From Cyanobium sp. M30B3 (GTDB lineage: Bacteria > Cyanobacteriota > Cyanobacteriia > PCC-6307 > Cyanobiaceae), in NCBI GenBank assembly GCA_018399015.1, contig CP073761.1, positions 3,010,465-3,074,464 on the forward strand: a stretch of 64,000 nt of DNA, read 5' to 3'. Made by a program: the position numbers and the translations under genes. Positions 32,673 to 47,661 of this stretch are shown here, in pieces. The notes under the pieces were generated by a model. It was not told where the DNA came from and did no database searches. It saw only the letters and a program-made list of their open reading frames with translations. The stretch's first letter is position 1; each line of letters begins with the position of its first letter.

Positions 32673-32674
32673 TT

Positions 32675-32710
32675 ACTATTAGGACTATTAGGACTATTAG
32701 GACTATTAGG
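32675..32710. repeat. Perfect 9-bp tandem repeat (actattagg x4)
   Basis: Read directly from the sequence. It begins 3 nt after the oxidoreductase stop codon. Confidence 0.95.
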
Positions 32711-33177
32711 GGTCTCCTGCAAAGCCAAATGCTATACAGCACAGCTCGCCTACGCGATCGACGGTCGGCAAACTGACGACGAACCCGGCAATCGACAGTT
32801 GCCATGACAGCTAAGCCCTACACAGGTACAGCAAGCACCATAACAGCCTATTCTAAATACAGGGGCTCCACGCACCCTTGGCTAGGACGTCTAATCCCAA
32901 GAACCGCTGGGTTCTCTTCTCCTGACTGACCTCTTAGGAAGAGCTAGAGGAAGCATATACACCTCAGTTGAACACTACGACTGGTGTGTCTGAGAAATCC
33001 CTAAGGCTTGCGATTGATGCCTTGTTTATCCAGCAATGGCTTAGATTTGAGGTCACTGGCCTGGCATTGCCGCCGGGGAACGAACCGAGCCTGCTTGCAC
33101 AGCTGGGGCAGGAGCAGCGGCCAGATCACCGCCCGAGCAACATCCGTGAGCAGGCCCTACTGGCGGAGTAGGTGGCC

Positions 33178-33515
33178 GAAACACGACAGGAGCTGGTACC
33201 GCCGCAGCGCAATCGATGTGAGCAACGCTCACGGCCGGCAGCAAATCATGCAGGAGATCGCCGCCGATCACGCCATCCACCCGATCCAAGTGAGCCAGTG
33301 GAAGCGCCAGCTGCTGGACGGTATCAAGCGATGGTTGGGAGGCTAAGTGCATGGACCGCTTCCTGTGGAGGTACTGCCACGTAAGGCCGCACAGCTCCCT
33401 GGGAGACAGAACTCCCCATGAGGTCTACACTGAGACGGAACCCTGCTCCTCCTGCCCGGAGGTAACGATGTCAGGGGCCAGATCTGTCCAACAAAAGGCA
33501 TACACCTCAATCTGA
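33178..33515 (+). pseudogene. IS3-family transposase remnant (OrfA HTH piece joined to the OrfB C-terminal piece)
   Basis: MQEIAADHAIHPIQVSQWKRQLLDG resembles the IS3/IS911 OrfA HTH. Immediately downstream (33351-33515), FLWRYCHVRPHSSLGDRTPHEVY resembles the extreme C-terminus of IS3 OrfB (Y..RPHS.LG.RTP.EV). The catalytic DDE core is missing. Confidence 0.65.
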
Positions 33516-33523
33516 CGGCAACA

Positions 33524-34006
33524 ATGTTACCGCTAGCGACATTAGAACTAAATAGAGATATAAGATTGGTGCCAGTCGACAGAGACAAGACGTCGCTCTT
33601 CATAGATTTTGAAAATTCCCAGCGGGATCGGCAGGTTGGCAAAGCACTAAAGGAACATCTGGAAGCCTTTGGTCCTTTCTTTGCCCTGATGGCACAAGCC
33701 AATGAAAAATTGGTTGGCAGCATACGGGCTAGAATCTTCCATGAACTGGACCCAACACATAGAACAGTTTTGATAGCCCATTTTTGCGTCGACAAAGATT
33801 ACCAAGGGCTTGGGATTGGTTCGGCGATGGTCAAGCATCTTGTCAGTTCATATAAAAGAGATGAACAGATCCATGCAATAGCAGCCGAGGTAGATTACTG
33901 GAATTTGCCATCGCTTAGGGTTTTTGAGAAAAATCAGTTTAAGCCGAGCATGCAAAGCTTAAACATCAAGAAGATTATCCTTAAGAATCAGCTGAAGGCA
34001 CAATAG
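33524..34006 (+). CDS. GNAT family N-acetyltransferase
   Basis: Motif A is VDKDYQGLGIGSAMVKHL, with a downstream N..SLRVFEKNQFK. The sequence is AT-rich relative to the flanks. Confidence 0.72.
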   Translation: MLPLATLELNRDIRLVPVDRDKTSLFIDFENSQRDRQVGKALKEHLEAFGPFFALMAQANEKLVGSIRARIFHELDPTHRTVLIAHFCVDKDYQGLGIGSAMVKHLVSSYKRDEQIHAIAAEVDYWNLPSLRVFEKNQFKPSMQSLNIKKIILKNQLKAQ

Positions 34007-34080
34007 TGATGCTATTGCCACTGATGAAGTCCTCCTGTAGTCTTAAATAAATCCCATGTAATGCAAAAAGCTGAGCATTT

Positions 34081-35034
34081 ATGAATCATTTCCACATTGA
34101 TATTGAGCGAATCGATGCGGATGTCGCATTGCGGCTCTGGCAGGAGGCTAGCGAGGCCAGTGTATTTACCCACCCAAGTATTCTGTCTGCTTTATGCCAT
34201 GAAGTGCAGTGGTGGCTCGCAACGGAGGCAGGTAGACCGGCTTGCCTTTGGCCCGTATGCCTTGATCAAAACAACCAGATCTACAGGCCAGACTTTACTT
34301 ATTATCTTGGCCCAGTCCAGCTTGGCATGCAAGAACCTTCGCCCAGAGGACGCCTGCTCAAGGCTGTCGAGGTTCAACATAAACTGCTGGATGTGCTTAC
34401 AGACAGCTATGAAGAGGTGCGCTGGAGCACGCTCCCTGGCGAGCGGGATCTGCGCCCATGGCTGTGGTTTGAAAAGCACGGTCGCCACCCAATTGCACAA
34501 CCGCGCCACACAGCATGGATTGAGGATTTAAGTCGCTTTAAGGACAATGATAGCCTCGTCTACTTCGGTCGAAAACGACGCCAAGATTACCGCACAGCTC
34601 TTGAGGGCGGCGCGGTACTCGTGCCTGAGATCACGATTGGTCGCGTGAAAGAGTTGTATTACTCGACGCTTGAGGCAAACAATGCCGCCGATAAGGCACT
34701 GCGGAGGATGGATAGCGTTGAGTCCTTGTACGAACTGGCCCAGCAAGGGCACGGGTTTGTGCTGGCCTGCGGTTTAGCGCAAGACATGCTGCCACGTGCC
34801 TTTTGTTTGGTGCTGCTTGGCAAGGCGCGGGCCAATGCCGTAATTGCCGCATCCGACTCTCTCTGGCGCGGCAAAGACTTCAATCCCTTTCTCCAACTCA
34901 ATCTGTTGATGCGGGCCAATGCCGAGAATGCAACCCTATACGACTTCAACGGAGCGAATTCACTTCTACTCAGTAGCGATAAGCACAGCTATGGAGCAGA
35001 AGTAAAAATGTACTTCGACCTACACTGGCGCTGA
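34081..35034 (+). CDS. FemAB-like / Acetyltransf_6-type (GNAT-fold) acyl- or aminoacyl-transferase
   Basis: The 317-aa protein has a size and pattern (GRKRRQDYRTALEGG..., ...LYDFNGAN) reminiscent of FemAB/BioF2-like acetyltransferases. The assignment is tentative. Confidence 0.45.
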   Translation: MNHFHIDIERIDADVALRLWQEASEASVFTHPSILSALCHEVQWWLATEAGRPACLWPVCLDQNNQIYRPDFTYYLGPVQLGMQEPSPRGRLLKAVEVQHKLLDVLTDSYEEVRWSTLPGERDLRPWLWFEKHGRHPIAQPRHTAWIEDLSRFKDNDSLVYFGRKRRQDYRTALEGGAVLVPEITIGRVKELYYSTLEANNAADKALRRMDSVESLYELAQQGHGFVLACGLAQDMLPRAFCLVLLGKARANAVIAASDSLWRGKDFNPFLQLNLLMRANAENATLYDFNGANSLLLSSDKHSYGAEVKMYFDLHWR

Positions 35035-35039
35035 ACACG

Positions 35040-36068
35040 ATGCAGCGGCGAATTGAGCAGAGCATCTTTGAAGGACCGCACGGGCCCTGGCTCATCGCCG
35101 AGATCGGCGGCAACCACGAGGGGGATTTCGATGCTGCCCTCCGGCTCGCCGACCTCGCCCTTGAGGCGGGCGCCGATGCCGTCAAGTTCCAGGTGTATTA
35201 CGGCGATACGCTGGTATCTTCAGTTGCCAGCCCAGACCGCAACGCCCACTTCAAGCGATTCGAACTCGCGCCACAGCAGCACCTGGCCCTCGCCGAACGC
35301 GTGCTTGCTGCCGGCCGCGGCTATGTGGCGTCGGTGTGGGACATCAAAGCTTTCGACTGGATCACGCCCGTGCTCTCCGCCTGCAAGATCGGCAGCGGTG
35401 ACCTCACCGCGCCCCCTTTCCTAAGGGCGGCGGCCCATACCGGAAAGCCGATCCTGCTCTCTACCGGCCTTGCCGACATGGCCGAGGTTGCCGCAGCCGT
35501 GGAGGACATCCGCTGTGCAAATCCGGCATATCAAGAGCGCTCGCAACTCGCCCTGCTCCAGTGCACCACGATGTACCCGATCGCCGACGCCGACGCCCAC
35601 CTTGCTGTGATGGGTTCCTTCGCCAGCCTGGGCGTGACTGTGGGCTACTCCGACCACACGCTCGGCACCAAGGCCCTTGAGGTGGCCGCAGCCATGGGAG
35701 CCGAAGTACTCGAGTTTCACTTCACCGACAACAAGCAAGACCGCGCCTTTCGCGACCATCAGCTCTCGCTGGATGGGGCAGACCTGCGGAACCTAATCCA
35801 TGCGCTGGAGGACATCCGCACCCTGCAAGGCACTGGTATCAAGCAGCCGCTGCCCATCGAAGTCTCAAATGATCATCCGCGTTCCTTCCGGCGGGCAGTG
35901 TATCCTTCGCGCGACATCGAGGCAGGTGAGGTTCTCGACACAGACAACGTTTGCGTGCTGCGGCCAAATCAGGGTATCGATGCCCGCGATTACGACCGAG
36001 TAGTTGGCCGCTTGGCTCGCCGGCAGCTCCGGCGTCACGAGCCCCTCATGTGGCAGGACATCATCTGA
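35040..36068 (+). CDS. NeuB/PseI/LegI-family nonulosonic acid (sialic-acid-type) synthase
   Basis: WLIAEIGGNHEGDFDAALRLADLALEAGADAVKFQ, KIGSGDLT and LLSTGL are present. The C-terminal SAF-like domain is RRAVYPSRDIEAGEVL...V.VLRP. Confidence 0.85.
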   Translation: MQRRIEQSIFEGPHGPWLIAEIGGNHEGDFDAALRLADLALEAGADAVKFQVYYGDTLVSSVASPDRNAHFKRFELAPQQHLALAERVLAAGRGYVASVWDIKAFDWITPVLSACKIGSGDLTAPPFLRAAAHTGKPILLSTGLADMAEVAAAVEDIRCANPAYQERSQLALLQCTTMYPIADADAHLAVMGSFASLGVTVGYSDHTLGTKALEVAAAMGAEVLEFHFTDNKQDRAFRDHQLSLDGADLRNLIHALEDIRTLQGTGIKQPLPIEVSNDHPRSFRRAVYPSRDIEAGEVLDTDNVCVLRPNQGIDARDYDRVVGRLARRQLRRHEPLMWQDII

Positions 36069-36157
36069 GAACGCCGGAAACCAGCATTGTTTAACCCTGT
36101 GTAATCTGGGAGCCTACGATCAAATAATTCTACCCAAAGCATCCACTTTCTAGTACT

Positions 36158-37537
36158 ATGAATGAATCAGCCCCACTGGTAACAATCTACGTTCCCTGCC
36201 GCAATTATGGCAGATACCTCACGCAATGCGTGAAGAGCGTATTGCATCAACTATACACTAACTGGGAGCTGATTATCATCGACGAGGCGTCGGATGATGA
36301 TACCGTTTCGTTGGCAGGAAGCCTGCGCCAAAGAGACCCAAGTCGAATTACCATAATTAGGAATCCTGAACCAATTGGCCTGCAAAAGCTTGCCAACTAT
36401 GCACTTGGTTTGGCGAACGGGAAGTATACGATGCGGCTCGATGCCGATGACTGGCTGGATGAGGGGGCGATTCTCCTGATGGTCAGCAAGATTGAGGCGT
36501 CTCCAGATGCTGGTCTTGTGTATGGCAATTACTTCTATGTTAACGAAACAGGCGACGTGCTTGGAATGGAGCGCCGACATCGCTTGGGTTCAGAGGATAA
36601 AGTAGGGCACTTGCCTCCCCATGGGGCTTGTACCTTGTTTCGCACCAGAGCGTTGAAAGCGGCGGGTGGCTATTCAGAGGATATCGATGCCCAGGATGGG
36701 TGGGAGCTCTGGTACAAACTCTGCAATCGGGTTGGAGCCGTCAGTCTGGATGTCCCTGTTTTCTACTACCGGCAACATGCCACTTCGCTTAGCCGCGACA
36801 ATCAGCGGCTACTCCAGGCGCGCATGCGAATCTTCGCACAAATCGGCAAGAGCCTCGAAGGAGATTACAAGCCAACCTGCACAGCAGTTATACCTGTTCG
36901 CGAATCCTATCCAGGTAATGAGGGTGTTCCCTATCGTATGATTGATGGCAGCTCACTACTTGAAAGAGCAATTCGATCGGCTGCCGAGGTGGAAAGTGTC
37001 ACGCAAGTCATCGTTTCATCCCAAAGTCAATCCGTTCTTGATTATGCAGCTGGTCTTGAGGCACAGGGCAAAGTTCCACGCCATCTAAGATTGCTGCGAG
37101 ATGATTCAGTTACAGACAACACAAAACTACCGATTTGGGATATCCTGTTGCATGCTGGACAATACTATCAAAAACAGAATGGCTCAAGCACTGACATTAT
37201 TTTGTTCTTGAGCATCCACGCTTTAAACCGGCGTGCCGAGCATATTGAAAAAGCGATCAATGTTTTACGCATCACAGAAAGCGACTCAGTTGTTTCGGTG
37301 AAGGAAGAACGTGATCCAATCTTCTCGCACGGCCCAAGTGGCCTAAAGTTGCTTAACCCTGGCCGCTTTCAAGATCTGAACTATGATCGGGAGAGGCTCT
37401 ATTCATACAACGGAGCTATCATCGGAATATGGTGGGAGATTTTAAATCAGAATGCATTTCTCGGTGATGCAATCAGCTATATAGAAATGAGTGGGGAGGA
37501 TAGTTCTTACAATCAAGCTCGTGCCGGGACAATCTGA
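36158..37537 (+). CDS. Fusion protein: N-terminal family 2 glycosyltransferase plus C-terminal acylneuraminate (CMP-sugar) cytidylyltransferase-like domain
   Basis: N-terminal: LVTIYVPCRNYGRYL..CV.SVL.Q, LIIIDEASDDD, RLDADDW. C-terminal (from about aa 240): CTAVIPVRESYPG..GVPYRMIDGSSLLERAIRSA...VIVSS resembles CTP_transf_3. Confidence 0.68.
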   Translation: MNESAPLVTIYVPCRNYGRYLTQCVKSVLHQLYTNWELIIIDEASDDDTVSLAGSLRQRDPSRITIIRNPEPIGLQKLANYALGLANGKYTMRLDADDWLDEGAILLMVSKIEASPDAGLVYGNYFYVNETGDVLGMERRHRLGSEDKVGHLPPHGACTLFRTRALKAAGGYSEDIDAQDGWELWYKLCNRVGAVSLDVPVFYYRQHATSLSRDNQRLLQARMRIFAQIGKSLEGDYKPTCTAVIPVRESYPGNEGVPYRMIDGSSLLERAIRSAAEVESVTQVIVSSQSQSVLDYAAGLEAQGKVPRHLRLLRDDSVTDNTKLPIWDILLHAGQYYQKQNGSSTDIILFLSIHALNRRAEHIEKAINVLRITESDSVVSVKEERDPIFSHGPSGLKLLNPGRFQDLNYDRERLYSYNGAIIGIWWEILNQNAFLGDAISYIEMSGEDSSYNQARAGTI

Positions 37538-37593
37538 TGCCGAACCAAACGCAATCTTTCCTTGTGCAGGCTCACTTAAGCTGGTTGGATTAA

Positions 37594-38646
37594 ATGACCG
37601 TTCTTGTGACAGGTGCTGCCGGGTTCATTGGCTTTCATCTGAGCATGCGGCTGCTCAAGCGTGGCACACCAGTCCTGGGTTTCGACAACATAAACCCTTA
37701 CTACGAACCCGCCTTGAAAAGGGCACGAATCGCTCAATTGCGAGCAGTGGCGGAGCGTAGTAGTACCCCTTTTGCTTTAGTCGAAGCTGATCTGAAAGAC
37801 AGTCATGCGGTGGCGGCCGCTTTCCGCGGTCAGGCTGGCGGTGGTAAGGATTTATCGCCCGGTGCCCCCACGAAAGTGGTCAATCTGGCGGCCCAGGCTG
37901 GGGTGCGCTATTCGATCGAGAACCCAGCGGCGTACATCCAAAGCAACGTGGTGGGGTTTGGTCACATCCTTGAAGGCTGCCGCCATCACGGTATAGAGCA
38001 TCTTGTCTATGCCAGCAGTAGCTCGGTATACGGCGGCAACACAAAGCTGCCCTTTTCCGAGCACCAGGGAGTCGACCACCCAGTGAGCCTCTATGCGGCT
38101 AGCAAAAAGGCCAACGAACTCTTGGCACACTCATATAGTCATCTCTATGGGCTTTCCGCCACGGGATTGCGTTTCTTCACCGTCTATGGCCCCTGGGGGA
38201 GGCCGGACATGGCCCTGTTTCTGTTCACGAGGGCGATGCTTGCTGGCAAACCGATTCAGGTATTCAATAATGGCCAGATGATCCGAGATTTTACCTATGT
38301 TGACGACATCGTTGAGAGCCTGATCCGGGTACTTGACAAGCCTGCCACACCGGATCCTGACTTTGATCCTGCCCAGCCCGATCCAGCCACGAGCTGGGCA
38401 CCGCATCGGTTGTTTAATATCGGCAACTCAAATCCCACGCCGCTGATGAACTACATCAAGGCACTGGAGAGTGCATTGGGCATCTCGGCCACCAAGGAAT
38501 TTCTTCCTCTGCAACTCGGTGATGTTCCGGCTACGGCATCTGACACCTCAGCCCTCGAGGCCTGGACGGGGTTTAAACCCAACACGCCGATACAAGAGGG
38601 TGTAACCCGCTTTGTTGCCTGGTACCGGGACTACTACAACGTTTAA
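37594..38646 (+). CDS. NAD-dependent UDP-glucuronate (or UDP-HexNAcA) 4-epimerase, SDR family
   Basis: VLVTGAAGFIGFHL, DN.NPYY...LK..R, SSSSVYG, and catalytic YAASKKANE are present. The overall pattern is typical of Cap1J/LpsL-type epimerases. Confidence 0.85.
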   Translation: MTVLVTGAAGFIGFHLSMRLLKRGTPVLGFDNINPYYEPALKRARIAQLRAVAERSSTPFALVEADLKDSHAVAAAFRGQAGGGKDLSPGAPTKVVNLAAQAGVRYSIENPAAYIQSNVVGFGHILEGCRHHGIEHLVYASSSSVYGGNTKLPFSEHQGVDHPVSLYAASKKANELLAHSYSHLYGLSATGLRFFTVYGPWGRPDMALFLFTRAMLAGKPIQVFNNGQMIRDFTYVDDIVESLIRVLDKPATPDPDFDPAQPDPATSWAPHRLFNIGNSNPTPLMNYIKALESALGISATKEFLPLQLGDVPATASDTSALEAWTGFKPNTPIQEGVTRFVAWYRDYYNV

Positions 38647-38692
38647 ATGTTGAACTGTTCCCAAAACCATCCGCACGATCTCGGCCCCTACT

Positions 38693-40141
38693 TTGTGCTT
38701 TGTCTTGACAACTCCCCCACCTGCCAAATTATTGTTGGGTAACCCCTCTCCGGAGAATGCATCAATAGCTGTGCTCCCCCCGCTCCATACCTGCACGGTG
38801 GCGGTTATCGGCCTGGGCTATGTGGGCCTGCCGCTGGCTGCCACCTTCGCCATACCAGGTGCCTGCTTGCGCACCGGTGCCCCCCTGCAGCGGCGCGTCA
38901 TCGGTTTCGACATCAACGGTCAGCGGCTGGAGGAGCTGAGGCAAGGGATCGACCGCACTCTCGAAACCAGCCGGGAAACCCTTCAGGACGCTGCCCTGCT
39001 GGAATTCTCCAGCGATCCGAAGCAACTCGCAGAAGCCGATGTTTATGTGGTCACAGTCCCCACGCCGATTGATGCCTCCAAACGCCCTGATCTGATGCCG
39101 CTGAAGAAGGCCAGCGCAACGGTGGGACAGGCACTTCGGCAAAGGGCTGAACGGCAGCGCGGTCATGCCCATGCCGCCACCACACCCATTGTGATCTATG
39201 AAAGTACAGTCTATCCCGGTGCTACAGAAGAAGTGTGCGTGCCGATCCTCGAGCGTGAATCAGGCCTGCGCTTCAACGCACATGAACCAGCGGCTGGCTT
39301 TGTGTGTGGCTACAGCCCCGAGCGGATCAACCCTGGCGACAACGACCATAAGCTCACCACGATCACCAAGGTGACCAGTGGCAGCACTGCCGACGCAGCT
39401 GCCTGGGTTGATGACTTCTACGGTTCAATTATTCAAGCAGGCACCCACCGGGCTGCGAATCTGAAGGTGGCAGAAGCGGCGAAGGTGATCGAGAACACCC
39501 AGCGTGATCTCAACATTGCCCTGGTGAACGAGCTGGCGATCATCTTCCACCAACTGGGGATCGACACGCTGGATGTGTTGGAGGCGGCTGGAACCAAGTG
39601 GAACTTTCTGCCCTTTCGACCTGGGCTTGTGGGGGGCCACTGCATCGGCGTGGACCCCTACTACCTCACCCACAAGGCCGAGCAACTTGGCTATCACCCG
39701 CAGGTCGTACTGGCGGGCCGGCGCATCAACGATGGCATGGGCCGCTGGGTCGTGGAGCAACTGGTGGTGGAGATGGCGAGGAATAGCATGGTGATCGCGG
39801 GATCGTCGGTGCTGGTGCTCGGGCTGAGCTTCAAGGAGAACTGCCCGGACCTGCGCAACACGCGGGTGGTGGATGTGATCGCGGCTCTGCAGCGCTATGG
39901 GATCCAGCCCATCCTGGTCGATCCCTGGGTGGATGCAGATGAGGCCATGCGGGAGTATGGCCTGACAGTGCTGGATTCAATCCCTGAGGGGTCCCGGTAC
40001 CAGGCCGTGATTGCCGCAGTAGCCCACCTTCAATTCATCAATCTTACAGAAGAGTGCTGGTCGAGGCTCTTGCAACCCGATGGCCTATTCTTAGATCTGA
40101 AAGGGATTCTTCCTAGAAGCCTCAATCCGCTACGCCTGTAG
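38693..40141 (+). CDS. Nucleotide-sugar 6-dehydrogenase (TviB/WbpO-like UDP-HexNAc dehydrogenase family)
   Basis: VAVIGLGYVGLPLA, the catalytic Cys context GLVGGHCIGVDPYYL, and LGLSFKENCPD.RN are present. The start is uncertain (TTG 38693 or GTG 38771). Confidence 0.85.
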   Translation: MCFVLTTPPPAKLLLGNPSPENASIAVLPPLHTCTVAVIGLGYVGLPLAATFAIPGACLRTGAPLQRRVIGFDINGQRLEELRQGIDRTLETSRETLQDAALLEFSSDPKQLAEADVYVVTVPTPIDASKRPDLMPLKKASATVGQALRQRAERQRGHAHAATTPIVIYESTVYPGATEEVCVPILERESGLRFNAHEPAAGFVCGYSPERINPGDNDHKLTTITKVTSGSTADAAAWVDDFYGSIIQAGTHRAANLKVAEAAKVIENTQRDLNIALVNELAIIFHQLGIDTLDVLEAAGTKWNFLPFRPGLVGGHCIGVDPYYLTHKAEQLGYHPQVVLAGRRINDGMGRWVVEQLVVEMARNSMVIAGSSVLVLGLSFKENCPDLRNTRVVDVIAALQRYGIQPILVDPWVDADEAMREYGLTVLDSIPEGSRYQAVIAAVAHLQFINLTEECWSRLLQPDGLFLDLKGILPRSLNPLRL

Positions 40142-40177
40142 ATTCTGCTGCACAGAACCCCATGATCAGGCTATAAA

Positions 40178-41218
40178 GTGTCCGCTCAGCAATTTGTCAC
40201 GATTGAGCGCTGCCCGCTTTGCGACAGCACTGCCGCGACTGAACACTCGGCGCCGGAAGCTAATCTCTACTCCGAGAAACTTGCGGAGATCGTGAGAACC
40301 GACGAGCGGCAGATGCTTCGCCAATATGGCAATTGGCGATGTTCGGATTGTGGTCTTGTGTTCAAGCGGCGCTGGTTCGCACCGGCGGTCATCCGCGAGT
40401 TGTTCAGCACCCCCGTTGCCTCCCATCCCAAGGGCTGGGACACCGTGCTCGCAAGGTTTTCCGCACATGGATTCCAGCGAACAGTCGAGTTCTGGGCCAT
40501 GGCCATCGGCCGTCAGGAGATACCGGATGTGCGGCGCGGCGAGCGGGAGTTGCTTTCGATCGTCGATTCGATCAGGGCACCAACGGGCTTTGAACCCGTC
40601 GCGATCGCGGCGGCTGTCGCCAGCGGTGATGTGGGGATGGTGCGGGCGCTCACCCCCGCGATCACAGCCTCGATCAGCGAGCCAGCAGCCTTCAAGAGGT
40701 TCTCTGGCTTCCGCTCTCTCGAGCTCTGGGAGTATCTGCAATCCCGGACTGGCGGATTCACCGAATACGCCGAGGTCGGCTGCCCGCTATGGGGCCTCCT
40801 CGCGCTGGCCGCGGACTTCGGCTGCCGTGCCACCTATCTCGTTCGCGATGAACCGAATTACTGGGGCCCCGGCTGCAGGAGCTCCGGCGTGCACTGCCTG
40901 GACCGACTTCTCGTCGACCGGCGCATTGGCTCCGCCCCATGGTCGGCCCCTGATCACCAGGCGATGATCGGCCTCTTCCAATACCTCGATCACCTGATCG
41001 CGCCGAGCCGCTTTCTCAAGCAGCTGTTTGCCAAGGCCGGCTCGGCTGCCATCATCATGGACGGCATCGATGCTCCAGTAGCGATCCAGCACGTGACCGG
41101 CTGGACTGACGACAGTTTTGCTTTCATCGCCCGGATATTCAGCAAGCACCTGCATACCGACTTCGACCCCATCCGCCCTTCCGGCAACCGCCTGTTTCTC
41201 CTCACCCCGAAGCGTTGA
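40178..41218 (+). CDS. Hypothetical protein with an N-terminal Cys4 zinc-ribbon; possibly a class I SAM-methyltransferase-like fold
   Basis: CPLCDS...(about 30 aa)...CSDCGLVF is followed later by YAEVGCPLWGLLALAA, which loosely resembles SAM motif I. GTG start. The function is not established. Confidence 0.4.
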   Translation: MSAQQFVTIERCPLCDSTAATEHSAPEANLYSEKLAEIVRTDERQMLRQYGNWRCSDCGLVFKRRWFAPAVIRELFSTPVASHPKGWDTVLARFSAHGFQRTVEFWAMAIGRQEIPDVRRGERELLSIVDSIRAPTGFEPVAIAAAVASGDVGMVRALTPAITASISEPAAFKRFSGFRSLELWEYLQSRTGGFTEYAEVGCPLWGLLALAADFGCRATYLVRDEPNYWGPGCRSSGVHCLDRLLVDRRIGSAPWSAPDHQAMIGLFQYLDHLIAPSRFLKQLFAKAGSAAIIMDGIDAPVAIQHVTGWTDDSFAFIARIFSKHLHTDFDPIRPSGNRLFLLTPKR

Positions 41219-41229
41219 CATCTACCGGC

Positions 41230-42546
41230 ATGTCGATCCTCGACGACCACCCCGACTGCTCAGCCCTCGACGCCGAGGGCATGCGGATGCTGGCCCTGCT
41301 TGAGCAGCTGTTGCCCATCCACCGCAGTCTTGCCGGGCCAGGCATCCGCGAGACCCTCGCGATCCTCGGCTCGTCGCTTGAGGGTTTTACCGTGACGCAG
41401 GTTGCCTCGGGCAGTCGCGTGCTGGATTGGATCGTTCCCGAGGAATGGCACCTGCGCTCCGCATCTCTGGAGTCTCCAGACGGGCACCGGCTGTGCGACG
41501 TGGCTGACAACACGCTCCACGTCGTGGGCTACAGCACAGCCGTGGACGAGAAGCTTTCCCTCGCCGAGTTGCAACCGCACCTCTACTCACTGCCCGACCA
41601 GCCCGACGCGATTCCGTACGTCACCTCCTACTACGAGCGGAAATGGGGATTCTGCCTGTCGCATCGGCAGCGTGAGAGCCTGCCGGAGGGCACGTATCAC
41701 GCTCGCATCGACGCAAATCACGTTGCTGGATCGTTGGACTACGGCCAGCTCGTGCTGCCGGGTCGGACAGCTGATGAAATCCTCTTTTCCACCTACTGCT
41801 GCCATCCGGCGATGGCCAACAACGAGCTGTCGGGCCCCGTGTTGGCCGCAGCCCTGGCCGAGTGGCTCGCTGCCCTGCCGGACCGTCGCTACACCTACCG
41901 ATTCGTGTTCGTTCCGGAAATGATCGGATCGGCGGCCGTTCTCGAAACTCAGCGCGAGCACCTAAGAAGCCATGTGCGGGCCGCCTTCAACCTGACCTGT
42001 GTGGGCGATGAGCGCACCTGGTCGTTCCTTCCCTCGCGGCTGGGCGATACCTATGCCGATCAGGTCGCCCGCCATGTACTCAGGCACGCCGTGGGCAGCT
42101 ACGACACCTATGCCTGGCGCGACCGTGGCAGCGACGAAAGTATGTACTGCGCTCCCGGCATCGATATCCCGATGGTGTCGATCATGCGCTCAAAGTATGG
42201 TACTTATCCCGAATACCACACTTCGCTTGACACGCCGGGCCGCGTGGTCACGGCCCGAGGCCTCGCTGAAACGCTCGGCTTACACCGCACGCTCGTTGAG
42301 ACGCTCGAGCACGACTGCGCACCCCGCGCTCTCGTGCTCGGCGAGCCCCAGCTCGGCCGGCGCGGCCTCTATCCTCAGACTAGCATCAAGGGGAGCACAG
42401 CAGTGGTGAAAGATCTGCTCGATCTCATCTCCCACGCCGACGGTCACACCAGTCTGCTCGACATTGCCGCCCGCTGCGACCGTCCGCTGTGGTCGCTGCT
42501 GCCGCACCTCGAAGTACTCGTCACCGCCGGAGTGATGGAGCGGTGA
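41230..42546 (+). CDS. Aminopeptidase-like (DUF4910/DUF2172, M28-like) domain protein typical of polysaccharide loci
   Basis: LLPIHRSLAGPGIRETL, VLDWIVPEEW, YVTSYYERKWGFC, CHP.MANNELSG, FVFVPEMIGS match my memory of COG4310-type proteins. An alternative TTG at 41215 overlaps the upstream stop. Confidence 0.68.
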   Translation: MSILDDHPDCSALDAEGMRMLALLEQLLPIHRSLAGPGIRETLAILGSSLEGFTVTQVASGSRVLDWIVPEEWHLRSASLESPDGHRLCDVADNTLHVVGYSTAVDEKLSLAELQPHLYSLPDQPDAIPYVTSYYERKWGFCLSHRQRESLPEGTYHARIDANHVAGSLDYGQLVLPGRTADEILFSTYCCHPAMANNELSGPVLAAALAEWLAALPDRRYTYRFVFVPEMIGSAAVLETQREHLRSHVRAAFNLTCVGDERTWSFLPSRLGDTYADQVARHVLRHAVGSYDTYAWRDRGSDESMYCAPGIDIPMVSIMRSKYGTYPEYHTSLDTPGRVVTARGLAETLGLHRTLVETLEHDCAPRALVLGEPQLGRRGLYPQTSIKGSTAVVKDLLDLISHADGHTSLLDIAARCDRPLWSLLPHLEVLVTAGVMER

Positions 42547-42548
42547 GC

Positions 42549-43238
42549 ATGCACCTGGGCATTCTCGTCTTTGCACGATCCGGCTCGAGCCGGTTGCCAG
42601 ACAAAGCGCTGCGTCTTATCGGAGGGATTCCCTTGCTCGAGCGCGTCATCCGGCGAGCACAGCTGCTCCCGTACCCCACGTTTCTGGCAACGACCGATCA
42701 CCCGGCTGATGATCGGCTTGTGGCGCTCGCGAGGCGACTGGGAGTCGCATCGTTTCGGGGTTCGGAAGATCGGGTTCTCGAGCGGGCCGTCCTCGCCGCC
42801 GAGGCCTTCGGACTCGACGCCTTTGCCCGGCTTTGCGGCGACCGGCCGTTGTTTCCGCTCGATGACCTCCAAGAGGCGGCAGAGATGATGCAGAGAGTGT
42901 CTGTGTCGGAACCGCAGGCGGGCCCCGATCTGGTCACCACATACGCGGACGGCCGCTGCCCGCGAGGCCTGATGACCGAGATCGTGCGGACTGGCACGCT
43001 GCGGCGTGTCCTCAACCATGGCGTGAGCAGCGAGCAGCAGGAGCACCTCACCCTTTACTTCTACGAGCACCGGGAAGACTTCCGCATTGTGAACCTTCCG
43101 AGTCCGGACAGTTCGTTCGTCTGCCCTGGCTTTGCCGTGGACAGCCAATCAGACCTTGGCAACCTCGACCGCATCTGTAGCGCGAACCCGGCTCTCGACC
43201 TCACCCCCGCAGAGGCTGACCGCATCCATACATCATGA
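42549..43238 (+). CDS. SpsF/CMP-sugar-type cytidylyltransferase family protein
   Basis: MHLGILVFARSGSSRLPDKALRLIGGIPLLERVIRRA, then ATTDHPADDRLV and FRGSEDRVLERA are present. An alternative GTG at 42543 overlaps the upstream stop (GTGA). Confidence 0.75.
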   Translation: MHLGILVFARSGSSRLPDKALRLIGGIPLLERVIRRAQLLPYPTFLATTDHPADDRLVALARRLGVASFRGSEDRVLERAVLAAEAFGLDAFARLCGDRPLFPLDDLQEAAEMMQRVSVSEPQAGPDLVTTYADGRCPRGLMTEIVRTGTLRRVLNHGVSSEQQEHLTLYFYEHREDFRIVNLPSPDSSFVCPGFAVDSQSDLGNLDRICSANPALDLTPAEADRIHTS

Positions 43239-43936
43239 GAGACTTTTTTATCTATCCAGCCCAGACGAACCTCGAGCTCTACGCGCAGGCCATCAGCCAT
43301 GGTTATTCCAGTGACCAGTGCCGAGCGCTCGCCGACGCCTACGTGTTTGCCCTGCGGCAGGTGTTTTCCCTGGCTCGCGGCTCAGGCAAACCCTTTATCG
43401 CCCATCTCGTGGGTACCGCAAGTCTTGTGATGGAATCCGGCTGCCCCGACCACTGGGTGATCGGGGCCCTGCTTCACGCCGTTTATCAGCACCGAGTTCC
43501 CTTCGAGGCTGGCCTTGAGCCAGAGGAGCGGAGAGTGGTGCTCGCGGATCGCTTTGGCACTCAGGTAGATGATCTTGTGCACCGCTACACGTCGTTTGAG
43601 TCGGCCGACCTGGGCGCCTACTCAGGCACCGCTGCACTGGCAGAAGCAGATGTGCTCACACTCCGCCTTGCCGACGAGCTTGAGGATCTCTGCGGAAACG
43701 CTCTCGCGCTGCACGGCAACGCAGGAGCAGATGACATCGGCCTGCGAGGCGGTTACCCGTGGCGCCGAGATGCCAAGACCACCGAGGCGCCAACGCTGCT
43801 CGAGCTGACCCGCAGGCTCAGCCTCGATGGCATGCATCGAGGCTTCAGCCAATGGTTGGTTTTTGAGTCCACTCCAGCTGCACTTGCGGACATGCGCACA
43901 GGCTGGTTCAGTAGTGTGTCCTTAGTTATCGCTTAA
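43235..43936 (+). CDS. Hypothetical protein (possible HD-superfamily-like helical domain)
   Basis: ATGA overlap with the cytidylyltransferase gene. FIAHLVGTASLV...ALLHAVYQH is faintly HD-like. No confident family. Confidence 0.45.
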   Translation: MRDFFIYPAQTNLELYAQAISHGYSSDQCRALADAYVFALRQVFSLARGSGKPFIAHLVGTASLVMESGCPDHWVIGALLHAVYQHRVPFEAGLEPEERRVVLADRFGTQVDDLVHRYTSFESADLGAYSGTAALAEADVLTLRLADELEDLCGNALALHGNAGADDIGLRGGYPWRRDAKTTEAPTLLELTRRLSLDGMHRGFSQWLVFESTPAALADMRTGWFSSVSLVIA

Positions 43937-44297: not shown

Positions 44298-44307
44298 GGC
44301 CTGGGGC

Positions 44308-45129
44308 TCAGGATCGCCCTCCGCGACGACGGGCGTTCGCCTCGGTGACGATGGCCAGGATTCCGCGGTCGGCGGCCGTCCGCCTGTAGCGATAGACGGC
44401 GTGCTTCACGCCCCACGACAACCGCTGCAGAGCGGAGGGACGCGGGGGGGCAGGATGCGCCGTTCGATTGCGACGAGCGGCGGCGTGGTAGGCCTCGATG
44501 TCGGTGGTTTTCTGCCCGGGATGCCGGCGGAACTCACCGAGCGTCGCGTGGATCTTGCCGGGCGCCTCCCGCCTCGCCATGCGCAGCCAGAGGTCAAAGT
44601 CCATCGTCAGCTGACAGTCGGGATCGATCTCGCCGACTGTGAAATACAAGTCCCGACGAAAAAACACCGCCTCCTGCGGCAGATAGCAGTCGCCCCAGTA
44701 CAGCTCCAGGTAGTCCACCGGGGCCACGTAGCGCGACGACATACGACGCCCTGCCGCATCGATGAAGTCGTGGTCGCCGTAGGCCCATTGGATGCCGGGG
44801 TTGCGGTCGAAGTAATCGATGACCTTCGGCAACGCTCCGTCGATGAGGCGATCATCGCTGTTCAGCCAGCTCAAGATAGAACCCCGCGCCAGGCGGAAGC
44901 CCTCCCGCAGAGCGGCCGCCTGCCCGCCGTCTGGTCTGCTCTGCCAGTGGGCAAGCCGATGTTCATACGTCCTGATCACATTCAGCGATCCGTCCGTCGA
45001 CCCGCCATCCATCACCAGAATCTCGCAGACGTGCGCGGGGTAGTGCGCCAGGCAGTCCAGACACTCCTTCAGGAACGCCCCCTGGTTGAACGATGGCACC
45101 ACCACGCTCACGCAAGGTCCTGCAGCCAT
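44308..45129 (-). CDS. Family 2 glycosyltransferase
   Basis: Trimmed to the ATG at 45127-45129: MAAGPCVSVVVPSFNQGAFLKECLDC, ILVMDGGSTDGS, LNSDD. A GTG at 45165 is an alternative start. Confidence 0.8.
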   Translation of the reverse strand: MAAGPCVSVVVPSFNQGAFLKECLDCLAHYPAHVCEILVMDGGSTDGSLNVIRTYEHRLAHWQSRPDGGQAAALREGFRLARGSILSWLNSDDRLIDGALPKVIDYFDRNPGIQWAYGDHDFIDAAGRRMSSRYVAPVDYLELYWGDCYLPQEAVFFRRDLYFTVGEIDPDCQLTMDFDLWLRMARREAPGKIHATLGEFRRHPGQKTTDIEAYHAAARRNRTAHPAPPRPSALQRLSWGVKHAVYRYRRTAADRGILAIVTEANARRRGGRS

Positions 45130-45273
45130 CCGTCTAACCCACTGGCTGGGAGCGTCGATCGCCACGGACGGATTCGCAGGTTGAAGCCGACGTCGTCAAG
45201 AAGCTGAGCAGCACGGCCTCGGCACGGGGGCGGTCTGCGGGGGTCTTCGCCTGCAGGCTCTCGAGCCGCGACA

Positions 45274-45882: not shown

Positions 45883-47661
45883 ATGGCGATGATCCCCCGG
45901 GCGCCCACGGGTCGGCTCGCGCGAGGCCTGGGTGGGGCGTTGGCCCAGCGGCTCGGCACCCGGTTATGGATCGCGTCAAACAGTGTGCTGTCGCAGGTCG
46001 AGAGCGCCGAAGGCGATGTCCATCGAGCCTCGGAGCCAGCGGCGGGCGTCTTTCGCGTGGCCTGCTTCAGCCCCTACGCAACCTGGGACATAGTCTCGGC
46101 TTGGGAACTGACCGTTCTGCGAGCGTTGGCGAGGCGCGGCTGCAACACGCGGTTGCTCCTCTGCGATGCGGTCTCCCCGACCTGCGATCTCGTCTGGGCA
46201 GACGGCAACCCAAACCAGCAACGCTGTCTGGTCTGTCAGAGCCGTGCCGCGGGAGCCGCCCGGCTGCAGCACCACCCCTTTGAGTGGATGTCGCGCTACG
46301 TCGATGCCGCCGACCGTGCTGCGGCGATCGATTGGGCCGCGGCCCTGCCCGACGACGGCCTGCGCCACGCCCAGCTCGGCGACGATGACCTTGGCGAATG
46401 GTGCTTCGGCTCGATGACCAGCCACTTCCGGGGTCCACGGCTTGATCTGGATGACCCCGGCGTGCGGCGCGTCTACCGGCAGTATCTGTGCGGTGCGGCG
46501 CAGACGCTCGCCGGCTGTCGCGCCTGGCTGGAGGCTGTGCAGCCTGATGTGCTCTGGCTGTTCAACGGCCGCCTTGCGCTCACGCGGGTTGCCTTAGAAG
46601 CAGCGCGGGGGCTCGGGATCCGGGTGATCTGCCACGAGCGCGGCATGGTGCGCCATTCCCTGCGGCTGTGGGAAAACGAACGGTGTTCCCAGTATCGCGG
46701 TCGCCGGGAGGCTGCGCTGGCCAATGCGCGGCAACCGCTCACGGCCCAGCAGGCGGGGCAGGTCCTCCGCTGGCTCGACGACCGCCGCCACTCGCGCAAT
46801 TACAACCGCCAGCCCTTCCTGCGCAAGCACCGTCCGAGCGCGGCGCAGTCACTGGCTGCGGCCGGCGTGTCGGCGGGCGACCGCATCCTGTTGGCTCTCA
46901 CCAGTTCAGACCAGGAGTTCGGTGCCGAGGCCGATCGCAATCAGATCTTCGCCGAGCAGCACGAATGGCTCATGGCGATCCTGGGCTGGGCGACACGAAA
47001 CCCGGGCTGCCACCTCGTCATCCGGTTTCATCCGAACGCGAGCCCCGCCTCCTGGGCGGCATTGGCAGAGCGCCTGCCCGAACTCCACGGGGCGGATGAA
47101 ACGGCTTCGGTTGTGCGGCCGAGGGCGAACGTGTCTGTCGTCCCGCCAGGAAATCCACTCGACACCTACGCACTCCTGGACGCGTGTCATGCCGTGACGA
47201 CCTACGGCTCAACGACGGGGATCGAGGCGGCTGCGGCTGGCAAAACCGTGGTCGTGGCAGACCACTGCCTCTACCACGGGCTCCCATGGGCACAGTCGGC
47301 CGAGTCGCCCGTCCACTTCGTGGAATTGCTCGACGGCATGGCGTGGTCTGCCCGGCCGCAGGCCAACCCAGACGTTGCCGCAGGCGCCATGCGCTTCTTC
47401 TGGGACTACCACCTGGGGCAGAGCATCACCAGCCGACTCGTGCGCCATCCCGGCCTCGACTTCGCCCGGATCACCTACCGGGCCGACCAGCCAGAGAGAC
47501 TCGACTACGGCAAGGACCAGGGCCTCGACAGAATTACCGACGTGATCATGAACAGGCGAGCGATCTACGATTCGCGATTCTGCGGAGATGCCGAGGCCGA
47601 GCATGCTGCCGTGATCGCCCACCTCAAAGCCGCGGTTCTGGAGAGGAGGATGGCGAGATGA
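45883..47661 (+). CDS. Capsule polysaccharide biosynthesis (KpsS/KpsC/LpsZ-like, Capsule_synth) family protein
   Basis: The 592-aa protein has the pattern ILLALTSSDQEF...RFHPN...VTTYGSTTGIEAAAAGKTVVV, reminiscent of Capsule_synth proteins. The assignment is tentative. Confidence 0.45.
   Translation: MAMIPRAPTGRLARGLGGALAQRLGTRLWIASNSVLSQVESAEGDVHRASEPAAGVFRVACFSPYATWDIVSAWELTVLRALARRGCNTRLLLCDAVSPTCDLVWADGNPNQQRCLVCQSRAAGAARLQHHPFEWMSRYVDAADRAAAIDWAAALPDDGLRHAQLGDDDLGEWCFGSMTSHFRGPRLDLDDPGVRRVYRQYLCGAAQTLAGCRAWLEAVQPDVLWLFNGRLALTRVALEAARGLGIRVICHERGMVRHSLRLWENERCSQYRGRREAALANARQPLTAQQAGQVLRWLDDRRHSRNYNRQPFLRKHRPSAAQSLAAAGVSAGDRILLALTSSDQEFGAEADRNQIFAEQHEWLMAILGWATRNPGCHLVIRFHPNASPASWAALAERLPELHGADETASVVRPRANVSVVPPGNPLDTYALLDACHAVTTYGSTTGIEAAAAGKTVVVADHCLYHGLPWAQSAESPVHFVELLDGMAWSARPQANPDVAAGAMRFFWDYHLGQSITSRLVRHPGLDFARITYRADQPERLDYGKDQGLDRITDVIMNRRAIYDSRFCGDAEAEHAAVIAHLKAAVLERRMAR

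What the first reader, a model, noticed from the sequence alone, without database searches (positions are those of the whole stretch)
33524..36068. A NeuB-like synthase has GNAT and FemAB-like partners but none of the upstream nonulosonic-acid pathway genes
The sequence shows GNAT, a FemAB-like gene and a NeuB/PseI/LegI-like synthase consecutive on one strand. From established knowledge, pseudaminic, legionaminic and neuraminic acid routes also need a dehydratase, an aminotransferase and a hydrolysing 2-epimerase or nucleotidase, and I recognise none of these in the window. I infer either that the hexosamine precursor is made elsewhere in the genome, or that the synthase condenses PEP with an unusual, possibly aminoacylated, sugar. 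The FemAB-like enzyme would suggest the latter. Nonulosonic acids are rarely documented on picocyanobacterial surfaces.
Basis: partly seen in the sequence, partly recalled or inferred. Interest (0 to 1): 0.6.

Follow-up and report, generated by a model that had tools for sequence, protein, structure and literature searches.

The report
Aminoacyl-tailored sialic-acid-like sugar operon
A Cyanobium genome carries a foreign ten-gene operon that most likely builds, decorates with an amino acid taken from charged tRNA, activates and exports an unusual sialic-acid-like sugar, using a synthase from a branch of its family that has never been studied.

Summary
GNAT (33524-34006), a FemAB-like gene (34081-35034) and a NeuB-family synthase (35040-36068) lie head to tail. 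They open a ten-gene plus-strand operon (33524-43936) that also holds a GT2/cytidylyltransferase-like fusion, a uronate module, a Zn-ribbon methyltransferase-fold protein, DUF4910, an SpsF-type cytidylyltransferase and an HD-like DUF6817 protein. A KpsC/WbbB-like transferase and an ABC exporter follow.

The FemAB call is now solid. The model (pLDDT 94) best matches tRNA-dependent enzymes that aminoacylate an amino sugar, then FemX, FemA and MprF. The synthase keeps its catalytic residues. It forms its own well-supported clade outside the PseI and NeuB/LegI equivalogs.

The complete genome has no NeuC/LegG and no PseG. Its one DegT aminotransferase and one PglF-like dehydratase lie far away, so a standard precursor route elsewhere is not supported.

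The same cassette occurs in Lysobacterales, Bacteroidota, Planctomycetota and Mycobacterium. The FemAB-like gene nearly always sits beside DUF4910. Its neighbour is a methyltransferase or a GNAT, never both, as expected for capping a newly added alpha-amine. In other bacteria the pair sits inside true pseudaminic acid clusters.

The identity of the sugar remains unknown. This is a new variant of a known kind.

The parts
33524..34006 (+). GNAT N-acetyltransferase; proposed cap of the alpha-amine of the added amino acid
   Evidence: PF00583, E 8.5e-16. No PseH hit. In related loci a GNAT or a methyltransferase sits beside the FemAB-like gene, never both.
34081..35034 (+). FemABX-superfamily double-GNAT protein ('FemL'); proposed aminoacyl-tRNA-dependent aminoacyl transferase acting on a sugar
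   Evidence: Profile hits to FemX and to Sba18/Sbb17. PF13480 in 16 of 22 homologues. Model pLDDT 94.4. Foldseek top hits 9wqx/9wqy (E 3.5e-12, TM 0.68/0.75), then FemX, FemA and MprF.
35040..36068 (+). NeuB-family PEP-condensing synthase of a separate clade
   Evidence: PF03102 plus SAF. 242 bits against NeuB (cut-off 400) and 187 against PseI (cut-off 340). Own clade, SH-aLRT 100. Catalytic residues kept, with clade-specific substitutions.
36158..37537 (+). GT2 glycosyltransferase with a cytidylyltransferase-like C-terminal half
   Evidence: PF00535, E 1.2e-25, for residues 9-163. C-terminal 235-459: weak CTP_transf_3 (E 0.06), and 26 of 30 language-model neighbours are CTP_transf_3 clusters. 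Adjacent to the synthase in 8 loci.
37594..38646 (+). SDR of the UDP-uronate 4-epimerase type (accessory; not part of the conserved cassette)
   Evidence: Best PDB hit 5u4q at 415 bits, then MoeE5, BcUGAepi, WbgU and WbpP.
38693..40141 (+). TviB-like UDP-N-acetylhexosamine 6-dehydrogenase (accessory)
   Evidence: NF011729 TviB, 510 bits (cut-off 592); TIGR03026, 325 bits.
40178..41218 (+). Zn-ribbon plus class I methyltransferase-fold protein of a rare family without a Pfam model ('u346')
   Evidence: No Pfam or PDB sequence hit. Model pLDDT 88.9 matches methyltransferases, including MtmC. Language-model neighbours are Methyltransf_23 clusters. 154 clusters among 1.84 billion representatives.
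41215..42546 (+). DUF4910/DUF2172/HTH_47 metallopeptidase-like protein, the near-constant partner of the FemAB-like gene
   Evidence: PF16254, E 3.8e-83. 3k9t, 266 bits. Present in 31 of 37 loci that hold FemL; the 6 without it are contigs of 12.2 kb or less (2.4-12.2 kb), some ending 1-3 kb from the gene.
42489..43238 (+). SpsF/KdsB-type cytidylyltransferase (CMP activation)
   Evidence: PF02348, E 1.3e-18. Below the PseF and KdsB cut-offs.
43235..43936 (+). HD-like DUF6817 protein whose HD dyad reads HA
   Evidence: PF20680, 26.9 bits (cut-off 25.2); HD_4, 25.7 bits (below its cut-off). Alignment of 9 homologues: H81-A82 invariant.
44308..45165 (-). GT2 glycosyltransferase; the long + strand ORF 43948-45207 over it is spurious
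   Evidence: PF00535, E 4.3e-21. The + strand ORF is Arg-rich and has no family.
45883..47661 (+). Putative ulosonic-acid transferase related to KpsC/WbbB (GT107/GT99-like)
   Evidence: Profile hits WbbB 5fa0 (E 0.007) and KpsC 6mgb (E 0.02). hhalign gives 93% probability to a Lysobacterales neighbour family that hits KpsC at E 2.7e-8. Weak PF05159.
48864..50765 (+). Fused ABC exporter (ABC_membrane plus ABC_tran)
   Evidence: An exporter with the same two Pfam domains recurs in 7 related loci; homology to the window's exporter was not tested, because the window slice used for clustering ended at 50000.

Best explanation
The trio is the head of a horizontally acquired operon (33524-43936, with transferases and an exporter downstream) for a surface glycan that carries a modified nonulosonic-acid-type sugar.

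Proposed route:
1. The divergent NeuB-family synthase condenses PEP with an N-acylated aldose that is not made by the standard Pse, Leg or NeuC routes.
2. The FemAB-like enzyme moves an amino acid from aminoacyl-tRNA onto an amine of the sugar or of its precursor. It works together with the DUF4910 metallopeptidase-like protein, which may free that amine by deacylation.
3. The GNAT acetylates the new alpha-amine. In other bacteria a methyltransferase takes this role.
4. The SpsF-type cytidylyltransferase makes the CMP-sugar.
5. The KpsC/WbbB-like protein and the GT2 enzymes put it into a glycan, which the ABC exporter moves out.

Shown: gene content and order, folds, the separate clade, and conservation of the cassette. 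Inferred: the donor (aminoacyl-tRNA), the acceptor atom, the order of steps, the role of DUF4910, and the identity of the sugar.
For: - FemL fold. The top structural matches are all aminoacyl-tRNA-dependent transferases. The first are Sbb17/Sba18 in complex with the amino sugar compound streptothrisamine. Orf11 of that group is a Gly-tRNA-dependent enzyme that converts streptothrisamine to glycylthricin (PMC12945691).
- Synthase. The catalytic and metal residues of NmeNeuB are kept. The clade is separate, with SH-aLRT 100 and a stem of 1.41.
- Cassette. GT2a, NeuBL, HD-like, u346, DUF4910, CTP_transf_3 and FemL recur in Lysobacterales, Psychroflexus, Isosphaeraceae, Mycobacterium and Cyanobium loci.
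- FemL with DUF4910 in 31 of 37 loci. A methyltransferase is beside FemL in 16 loci and a GNAT in 8 (7 adjacent, one 4.6 kb away), never both.
- In Rhodobacterales, Pseudoalteromonas and Rhodoferax the pair lies in true Pse clusters: PseB 540, PseC 520, PseF 320 and PseI 494-522 bits.
- N-acetyl-alanyl nonulosonic acids and amino sugars exist: Leg5Ac7AcAla (PMC7371886) and further examples in PMC3210612.
- Das et al. 2014 linked DUF4910 to SpsE/SpsF and to an ATP-grasp aminoacyl ligase (PMC4000134).
- One contig in each of two other metagenome studies covers 33377-44220 at about 97.5% identity.
Against: - No biochemical datum exists for any protein of the cassette.
- The source of the aldose and of a free amine is unknown. 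The cassette holds no aminotransferase.
- Das et al. report that DUF4910 lacks the usual peptidase active-site residues, so a deacylase role is a guess.
- Lower-ranked structural matches include acetyl-CoA-dependent tandem GNATs (2wpw, VipF).
- The correspondence of the near-invariant K301 to the catalytic Lys305 of FemX was not checked residue by residue.
- The HD-like protein has lost the Asp of the HD dyad, so no phosphatase step can be leaned on.
- DUF4910 occurs without FemL in 8 of 9 cyanobacterial genomes that have it.
Confidence: 0.5

Rival explanations
1. This is an ordinary legionaminic, pseudaminic or neuraminic acid pathway. The hexosamine precursor is made by unlinked genes, and GNAT and FemL are simple N-acyl variants of PseH/LegH.
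For: The genome holds one PglF-like 4,6-dehydratase (371 bits) and one DegT aminotransferase (258 bits against PseC). In one cassette genome (G497) a NeuC above its cut-off lies beside a DegT gene, and the cassette synthase is the only NeuB gene in that genome.
Against: - This complete genome has no NeuC/LegG and no PseG.
- The synthase is far below both equivalog cut-offs and lies outside both clades.
- NeuC is above its cut-off in only 2 of 5 cassette genomes, and one of them has no Epimerase_2 match at all.
- The GNAT does not match PseH.
Confidence: 0.15
2. The sugar is a Kdn-like, non-amino ulosonic acid made from mannose or mannose 6-phosphate. FemL esterifies a hydroxyl group with an amino acid, as MprF does on phosphatidylglycerol.
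For: No aminotransferase or hexosamine gene is in the cassette. MprF domains are among the structural matches of FemL. The transferase candidates resemble Kdo transferases. One cassette genome has no Epimerase_2 gene.
Against: The synthase keeps R308. By my recollection of the N. meningitidis NeuB structure, the equivalent Arg314 contacts the N-acetyl group of ManNAc; I did not verify this here. R308 is lost in the CBS-fusion clade of the same genome. The best structural matches of FemL act on amines.
Confidence: 0.15
3. FemL is an acyl-CoA-dependent N-acyltransferase, a tandem GNAT that adds for example a hydroxyacyl group. No tRNA is involved.
For: It has the GNAT fold. Acetyl-CoA-using tandem GNATs (2wpw, VipF, 7q3a) appear among the matches. 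PF13480 is named an acetyltransferase domain.
Against: The eight best matches, and all sequence-profile matches, are aminoacyl-tRNA-dependent enzymes. The alternating GNAT or methyltransferase neighbour suggests that a new amine is created.
Confidence: 0.15

Closest known systems
CMP-pseudaminic, CMP-legionaminic and CMP-neuraminic acid pathways (PseBCHGIF, LegBCHGIF, NeuCBA)
   Same: A NeuB-family PEP-condensing synthase with a SAF domain, and a CTP_transf_3 cytidylyltransferase, in a surface-glycan locus. An N-acyltransferase lies beside the synthase.
   Different: The synthase is outside the PseI and NeuB/LegI equivalogs. No PseB/LegB, PseC/LegC, PseG or NeuC/LegG is in the operon, and no NeuC or PseG anywhere in the genome. 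Extra conserved genes are present: FemAB-like, DUF4910, a methyltransferase-fold protein and DUF6817.
DUF4910 (CA_C2195) gene neighbourhood of Das et al. 2014 (PMC4000134; PDB 3k9t)
   Same: DUF4910/DUF2172/HTH_47 lies with SpsE-type and SpsF-type genes, glycosyltransferases, N-acetyltransferases and methyltransferases. Cyanobacteria, planctomycetes, actinobacteria and bacteroidetes were already listed there.
   Different: The example there pairs DUF4910 with an ATP-grasp aminoacyl ligase inside a flagellin glycosylation island. Here, and in 30 further loci, the partner is a FemAB-like enzyme. That partner, the separate synthase clade and the u346 and DUF6817 genes are not mentioned in the paper.
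tRNA-dependent amino-sugar aminoacylation in streptothricin-type antibiotics (Orf11, Sba18/Sbb17; PDB 9wqw-9wqy)
   Same: Best structural match of FemL (TM 0.68/0.75, E about 1e-12), and a profile hit at E 8.9e-5. A double-GNAT enzyme that puts an amino acid on the amine of a sugar.
   Different: 15-17% identity. The context there is an antibiotic pathway in Streptomyces, not a glycan locus. The acceptor here is unknown.
FemX/FemA/MurM peptidoglycan bridge transferases
   Same: The same double-GNAT fold, and profile similarity (6snr, E 4.8e-6).
   Different: FemL has no coiled-coil insert of the FemA kind. There is no peptidoglycan context. It is always linked to DUF4910 and to sugar genes.
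KpsC/KpsS (GT107) and WbbB (GT99) beta-Kdo transferases
   Same: The 592-aa protein at 45883-47661 and the Lysobacterales neighbour family match their catalytic region.
   Different: The matches are weak (E 0.007-0.02 for the window's family) and cover about 50-90 residues. The donor would be a CMP-nonulosonate rather than CMP-Kdo.

Membership tests
NeuB family (nonulosonic acid synthases, PF03102) | NeuB TIM-barrel domain plus C-terminal SAF domain | tested here: met
   PF03102, E 3.3e-54, covering 3-241 of 241 profile positions. SAF, E 1e-10.
NeuB family (nonulosonic acid synthases, PF03102) | Catalytic and metal-binding residues (in window numbering: E21, K49, Q51, K116, S119, S141, Y179, S204, H206, H227, D239, R308) | tested here: met
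   All are invariant in the 10 cassette synthases and align with the conserved residues of N. meningitidis NeuB. Differences: E134 of NmeNeuB is D121 here, and N184 is T.
N-acetylneuraminate/legionaminate synthase equivalog (TIGR03569) | Score over the curated cut-off, and placement inside the clade | tested here: not met
   242 bits against a cut-off of 399.65. Outside the clade of 10 equivalog sequences.
Pseudaminic acid synthase PseI (TIGR03586) | Score over the curated cut-off, and placement inside the clade | tested here: not met
   187 bits against a cut-off of 340.25. On the other side of the tree from 12 PseI equivalogs.
Pseudaminic acid pathway | PseB, PseC, PseH and PseG present with the synthase | tested here: not met
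   None is in the operon. There is no PseG in the genome. The only Polysacc_synt_2 gene is a long PglF-like gene 930 kb away. The single DegT gene scores 258 bits against a cut-off of 423.
Legionaminic or neuraminic acid pathway | Hydrolysing UDP-sugar 2-epimerase (NeuC/LegG) | tested here: not met
   The one Epimerase_2 gene in the genome is WecB (496 bits). It scores 86.5 bits against NeuC (cut-off 235.9).
FemABX aminoacyl transferases | Double-GNAT fold with the substrate cleft between the domains | tested here: met
   Model pLDDT 94.4, pTM 0.90. Weissella FemX TM 0.66/0.63, S. aureus FemX E 3.4e-10, Sbb17 TM 0.68/0.75.
FemABX aminoacyl transferases | Sequence-profile membership (PF02388 or PF13480) | tested here: inconclusive
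   The window protein itself has no Pfam hit. 16 of 22 homologues hit PF13480 (best E 1.4e-11) and 5 hit PF02388 (best E 0.006). The family profile hits FemX at E 4.8e-6.
FemABX aminoacyl transferases | Catalytic Lys (Lys305 of Weissella FemX) and use of aminoacyl-tRNA | not testable with these tools
   A near-invariant K301, followed by the invariant H302, Y304 and G305, lies 16 residues from the C terminus. Residue-level superposition and activity could not be tested.
CMP-nonulosonate synthetases (CTP_transf_3) | CTP_transf_3 domain; PseF/NeuA/KdsB equivalog score | tested here: inconclusive
   PF02348, E 1.3e-18. Only 29-39 bits against KdsB models and no PseF hit. This is the SpsF-like type.

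The most novel reading that the evidence does not exclude
The FemAB-like/DUF4910 pair is a general, horizontally mobile, aminoacyl-tRNA-dependent module that installs the amino-acid substituents seen on bacterial nonulosonic acids (N-acetyl-alanyl, N-methyl-aminoacyl and the like). A GNAT or a methyltransferase caps the new amine. In this Cyanobium the module serves a NeuB-family synthase of a new clade, which makes a sugar from a precursor outside the Pse, Leg and Neu routes. That would be a link between the translation machinery and surface-glycan chemistry not described before.
Probability: 0.35. Interest if true: 0.8.

Novelty: new variant of a known kind. Interest (0 to 1): 0.62.

Why it matters
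Amino-acid-decorated sialic-acid-like sugars are known from the structures of bacterial surface glycans. I found no paper in the library searched that assigns the enzymes which attach the amino acid: no paper held FemAB together with a nonulosonic acid term.

A tRNA-dependent route would add a new use of charged tRNA outside translation. It would also give a genomic marker for predicting such sugars.

For picocyanobacteria, a strain-specific, mobile surface-sugar operon bears on phage and grazer avoidance. The methyltransferase-fold marker was found in 0 of 300 other genomes of the family, and the FemAB-like gene in 0 of 200 other genomes of the phylum.

The separate synthase clade, together with two conserved proteins of no known function (u346 and DUF6817) and DUF4910, gives a defined target for finding a fourth precursor route to nonulosonic acids.

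Tried and rejected
I took neighbourhoods from the search for related loci instead.
- No RNA holder was listed for the stretch, so nothing can be said on expression.
- HD-like protein as a sugar-phosphate phosphatase, by analogy with the Neu5Ac-9-P and Kdn-9-P routes. I dropped this as a firm step. The HD dyad reads HA in all 9 homologues, and the HD_4 hit is below its cut-off.
- The SDR at 37594-38646 as a LegB/PseB-type dehydratase. Rejected: it is a uronate 4-epimerase type and is not part of the conserved cassette.
- ORF 43948-45207 (+). Rejected as spurious: a GT2 gene lies on the opposite strand.
- A sequence profile of u346 against the PDB gave nothing, and Pfam on 40 members gave only three weak Methyltransf_23 hits. 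The fold search and the language-model search gave the methyltransferase fold.
- Looking for NeuC or DegT as constant unlinked partners in five cassette genomes gave no consistent pattern.
- The large-scale NeuB phylogeny paper (PMC8208679) does not describe this clade.
- I did not run an AU test of alternative tree placements. The tree is a quick search with SH-aLRT support only.
Full report
**Observation.** Three ORFs lie on the + strand at 33524-34006, 34081-35034 and 35040-36068, with gaps of 74 and 5 nt.
- The first is a GNAT (PF00583, E 8.5e-16).
- The third is a NeuB-family synthase with a SAF domain (PF03102, E 3.3e-54).
- The middle ORF has no family hit of its own. Only 35 relatives were found in a 5.8-billion-protein collection. 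A profile of 22 of them hits S. aureus FemX (6snr, E 4.8e-6) and two 'aminoacyl-tRNA-dependent peptide synthases' (9wqy, E 8.9e-5; 9wqw, E 2.6e-4). Sixteen members hit PF13480 and five hit PF02388.
- Its AlphaFold model is confident (pLDDT 94.4, pTM 0.90). The best PDB matches are Sbb17/Sba18 bound to the amino-sugar compound streptothrisamine (E 3.5e-12, TM 0.68/0.75). Next come FemX of S. aureus and Weissella, MprF and FemA.

Genes run head to tail on the + strand from 33524 to 43936, with gaps of at most 89 nt or small overlaps. In order they are:
- GNAT, FemL and the synthase.
- A GT2 enzyme whose C-terminal 225 residues look like a cytidylyltransferase (Pfam E 0.06; 26 of 30 language-model neighbours are CTP_transf_3 clusters).
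- A uronate 4-epimerase-type SDR (5u4q, 415 bits) and a TviB-like dehydrogenase (510 bits).
- A 346-aa protein without a family ('u346').
- DUF4910/DUF2172/HTH_47 (E 3.8e-83; 3k9t, 266 bits).
- An SpsF-type cytidylyltransferase (PF02348, E 1.3e-18).
- An HD-like DUF6817 protein.

Downstream lie:
- a GT2 gene on the minus strand (44308-45165);
- a 592-aa protein whose family profile weakly matches the beta-Kdo transferases WbbB and KpsC;
- another GT2 gene and an ABC exporter.

The activation and transfer steps for an ulosonic acid are therefore present. What is missing is the precursor route.

**The synthase.** It scores 242 bits against the NeuB/LegI equivalog model (cut-off 400) and 187 against PseI (cut-off 340). 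It is about equally distant from N. meningitidis NeuB (121 bits), PseI (8h2c, 108 bits) and B. subtilis SpsE (100 bits).

I built a tree of 47 NeuB-family sequences. They were:
- 12 cyanobacterial PseI equivalogs and 10 NeuB/LegI equivalogs, labelled by their curated cut-offs;
- the synthases of the FemL loci;
- the genome's other NeuB gene.

The ten synthases that travel with u346 and DUF6817 form one clade (SH-aLRT 100, stem 1.41 changes per column). That clade lies outside both equivalog groups and outside the CBS-fusion clade.

The catalytic set is intact (E21, K49, Q51, K116, S119, S141, Y179, H206, H227, D239, R308). Positions that are invariant in both equivalog groups are changed across the whole clade: S97A, P99V, F100W, E121D and K226F, the last next to a metal-binding His. 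This fits an active enzyme with an altered pocket.

The protein is inside the family but in none of its named branches.

**Precursor genes in the genome.** The genome is one contig of 3.18 Mb, 99.99% complete.
- One Epimerase_2 gene, and it is WecB (496 bits; NeuC model 86.5 bits against a cut-off of 236).
- No PseG.
- One DegT aminotransferase, 72 kb upstream of the synthase, beside a photolyase-like gene. It is below every equivalog cut-off.
- One PglF-like Polysacc_synt_2 gene, 930 kb away.

The standard Pse, Leg and Neu routes cannot be completed with recognisable genes.

Among five other cassette genomes, NeuC is above its cut-off in two. In one, no Epimerase_2 match was found at all. In one, no DegT was found. 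In three, the cassette synthase is the only NeuB gene. Some of these are MAGs, so absences there are soft.

**Comparative context.** A scan of 185,579 species genomes gave 36 loci with a FemL relative.
- DUF4910 lies within 10 kb in 31 of the 37 loci (window included). The six without it are contigs of 12.2 kb or less (2.4-12.2 kb), some ending 1-3 kb from the gene.
- The full set GT2a, synthase, HD-like, u346, DUF4910, CTP_transf_3 and FemL recurs in four Lysobacterales genomes, in a Psychroflexus, an Isosphaeraceae and a Mycobacterium MAG, and in Cyanobium contigs.
- Beside FemL there is a class I methyltransferase in 16 loci, or a GNAT in 8 (7 adjacent, one 4.6 kb away), never both. Two alternative enzymes that modify amines in the same position are what one expects if FemL creates a new alpha-amine that is then N-methylated or N-acetylated. 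These loci are related to one another, so the counts are descriptive and not a test.
- In Silicimonas, Boseongicola, Pseudoalteromonas and Rhodoferax loci, the FemL/DUF4910 pair sits next to complete Pse gene sets: PseB 540, PseC 520, PseF 320 and PseI 494-522 bits, all over their cut-offs. The pair is therefore a tailoring module for nonulosonic acids, not something peculiar to this synthase.
- The association runs one way. In 201 genomes of the phylum, DUF4910 occurs in 9 and FemL only in this one.
- Das et al. (PMC4000134) found DUF4910 with SpsE, SpsF and an ATP-grasp aminoacyl ligase in Clostridium acetobutylicum. They proposed that it transfers a peptide or amino acid to an amino sugar, or deacylates one.

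DUF4910 thus partners with an amide-forming enzyme of one kind or another.

**The other unknowns.**
- u346 has an N-terminal CxxC...CxxC ribbon and a class I methyltransferase fold (model pLDDT 88.9). Its motif I is unusual (E-x-G-C-P-x-W-G), and H83, D271-H272 and Q304-H305 are invariant across 40 members. The family has only 154 clusters among 1.84 billion representatives. It was not found in 300 other genomes of the same family, 16 of them in the same genus.
- The HD-like protein has H-A in place of the H-D dyad in all nine homologues. I therefore do not rely on it as a phosphatase.

**Mobility.**
- The operon head lies in a stretch of lower G+C: 0.51-0.58 over 32-40 kb, against 0.62-0.74 around it.
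- It is bounded upstream by a transposase ORF (28960-30645, weak IS481-type hit) and by repeated DNA at about 32.6-34.0 kb, which has very high depth in metagenomes.
- In two other studies, a single contig covers 33377-44220 at about 97.5% identity and then runs into unrelated sequence at both ends. The GNAT-to-DUF6817 block exists as a unit in other populations.

**Mechanism proposed.**
- Shown: an intact NeuB-family synthase of a separate clade; a FemABX-fold enzyme closest to tRNA-dependent amino-sugar aminoacylases; a cytidylyltransferase; candidate ulosonic-acid transferases; a conserved cassette.
- Inferred: the synthase makes a nine-carbon 2-keto-3-deoxy acid from PEP and an N-acylated aldose. 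FemL, with DUF4910, replaces or extends an N-acyl group with an amino acid taken from aminoacyl-tRNA. The GNAT caps it. CMP activation, transfer and export follow.
- Precedents for the product type: Leg5Ac7AcAla in Vibrio vulnificus (PMC7371886), and N-(N-acetyl-alanyl) and N-(N-acetyl-glycyl) amino sugars in marine bacteria (PMC3210612).

The order of steps, the amino acid, the acceptor atom and the aldose are not known.

**Novelty.**
- The DUF4910/SpsE/SpsF neighbourhood was described in 2014, and nonulosonic acid pathways are well known.
- In the library searched, no paper held 'FemAB' together with a nonulosonic acid term. DUF4910 appears in only three papers, none with a function.
- The FemAB-like partner, its near-obligate pairing with DUF4910, the alternating cap enzyme, the separate synthase clade and the lack of any standard precursor route together make this a new variant of a known kind.

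Noticed in passing
own genome G000:C1:775473-777758 (locus L011:8473-10758, minus strand) and neighbours: There is a second NeuB locus. It holds a 761-aa CBS-NeuB-SAF-AP_endonuc_2 (xylose-isomerase-like TIM barrel) fusion, with three DUF6716 putative glycosyltransferases, a PseF-like cytidylyltransferase (105 bits, below its cut-off) and a sulfotransferase. Fusions of about 750-760 aa recur in at least 8 other genomes of the phylum sample. This clade has lost the Arg that corresponds to R308.
   Followed up: partly
window 43948-45207 (+) and 44308-45165 (-): The long + strand ORF is Arg-rich and has no family. The real gene is a GT2 glycosyltransferase on the minus strand.
   Followed up: yes
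window 36158-37537: The C-terminal half (residues 235-459) of this GT2 resembles CTP_transf_3 cytidylyltransferases. The operon may therefore carry two such domains. The gene is adjacent to the cassette synthase in 8 loci.
   Followed up: partly
window 32675-32710: The 9-bp tandem repeat after the oxidoreductase gene varies in copy number. Contigs from two other studies lack 18 nt (two units) at 32675.
   Followed up: partly
window 29328-30655 and 32648-33975: These bins have depths 10-70 times those of their neighbours in freshwater metagenomes. This fits multi-copy insertion sequences flanking the low-GC block.
   Followed up: no
L014 (JBJOGJ010000103.1): This contig is binned as 'Pseudomonadota bacterium', yet it carries the cassette at 75-90% protein identity to this Cyanobium (FemL 88%, synthase 86%). 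In it u346 follows the synthase directly. Either the contig is mis-binned or the transfer is very recent. The arrangement also shows that GT2a, the SDR and TviB were inserted between the synthase and u346 in this genome.
   Followed up: no
L043, L045, L046, L047, L048, L049 (alphaproteobacterial loci); window 31206-32672: In alphaproteobacteria a 450-aa FAD oxidoreductase (amine-oxidase-like N terminus) directly precedes FemL. The window has a different FAD amine-oxidase-like gene (PRK07208 family, 668 bits) just upstream, across an IS remnant. It may be an oxidative tailoring step for the aminoacyl group.
   Followed up: no
L045:13244-14605 (minus strand): A WaaA-like Kdo-transferase homologue (296 bits, below its cut-off) lies inside a Pse operon of a Silicimonas MAG. 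It may be a pseudaminic acid transferase.
   Followed up: no
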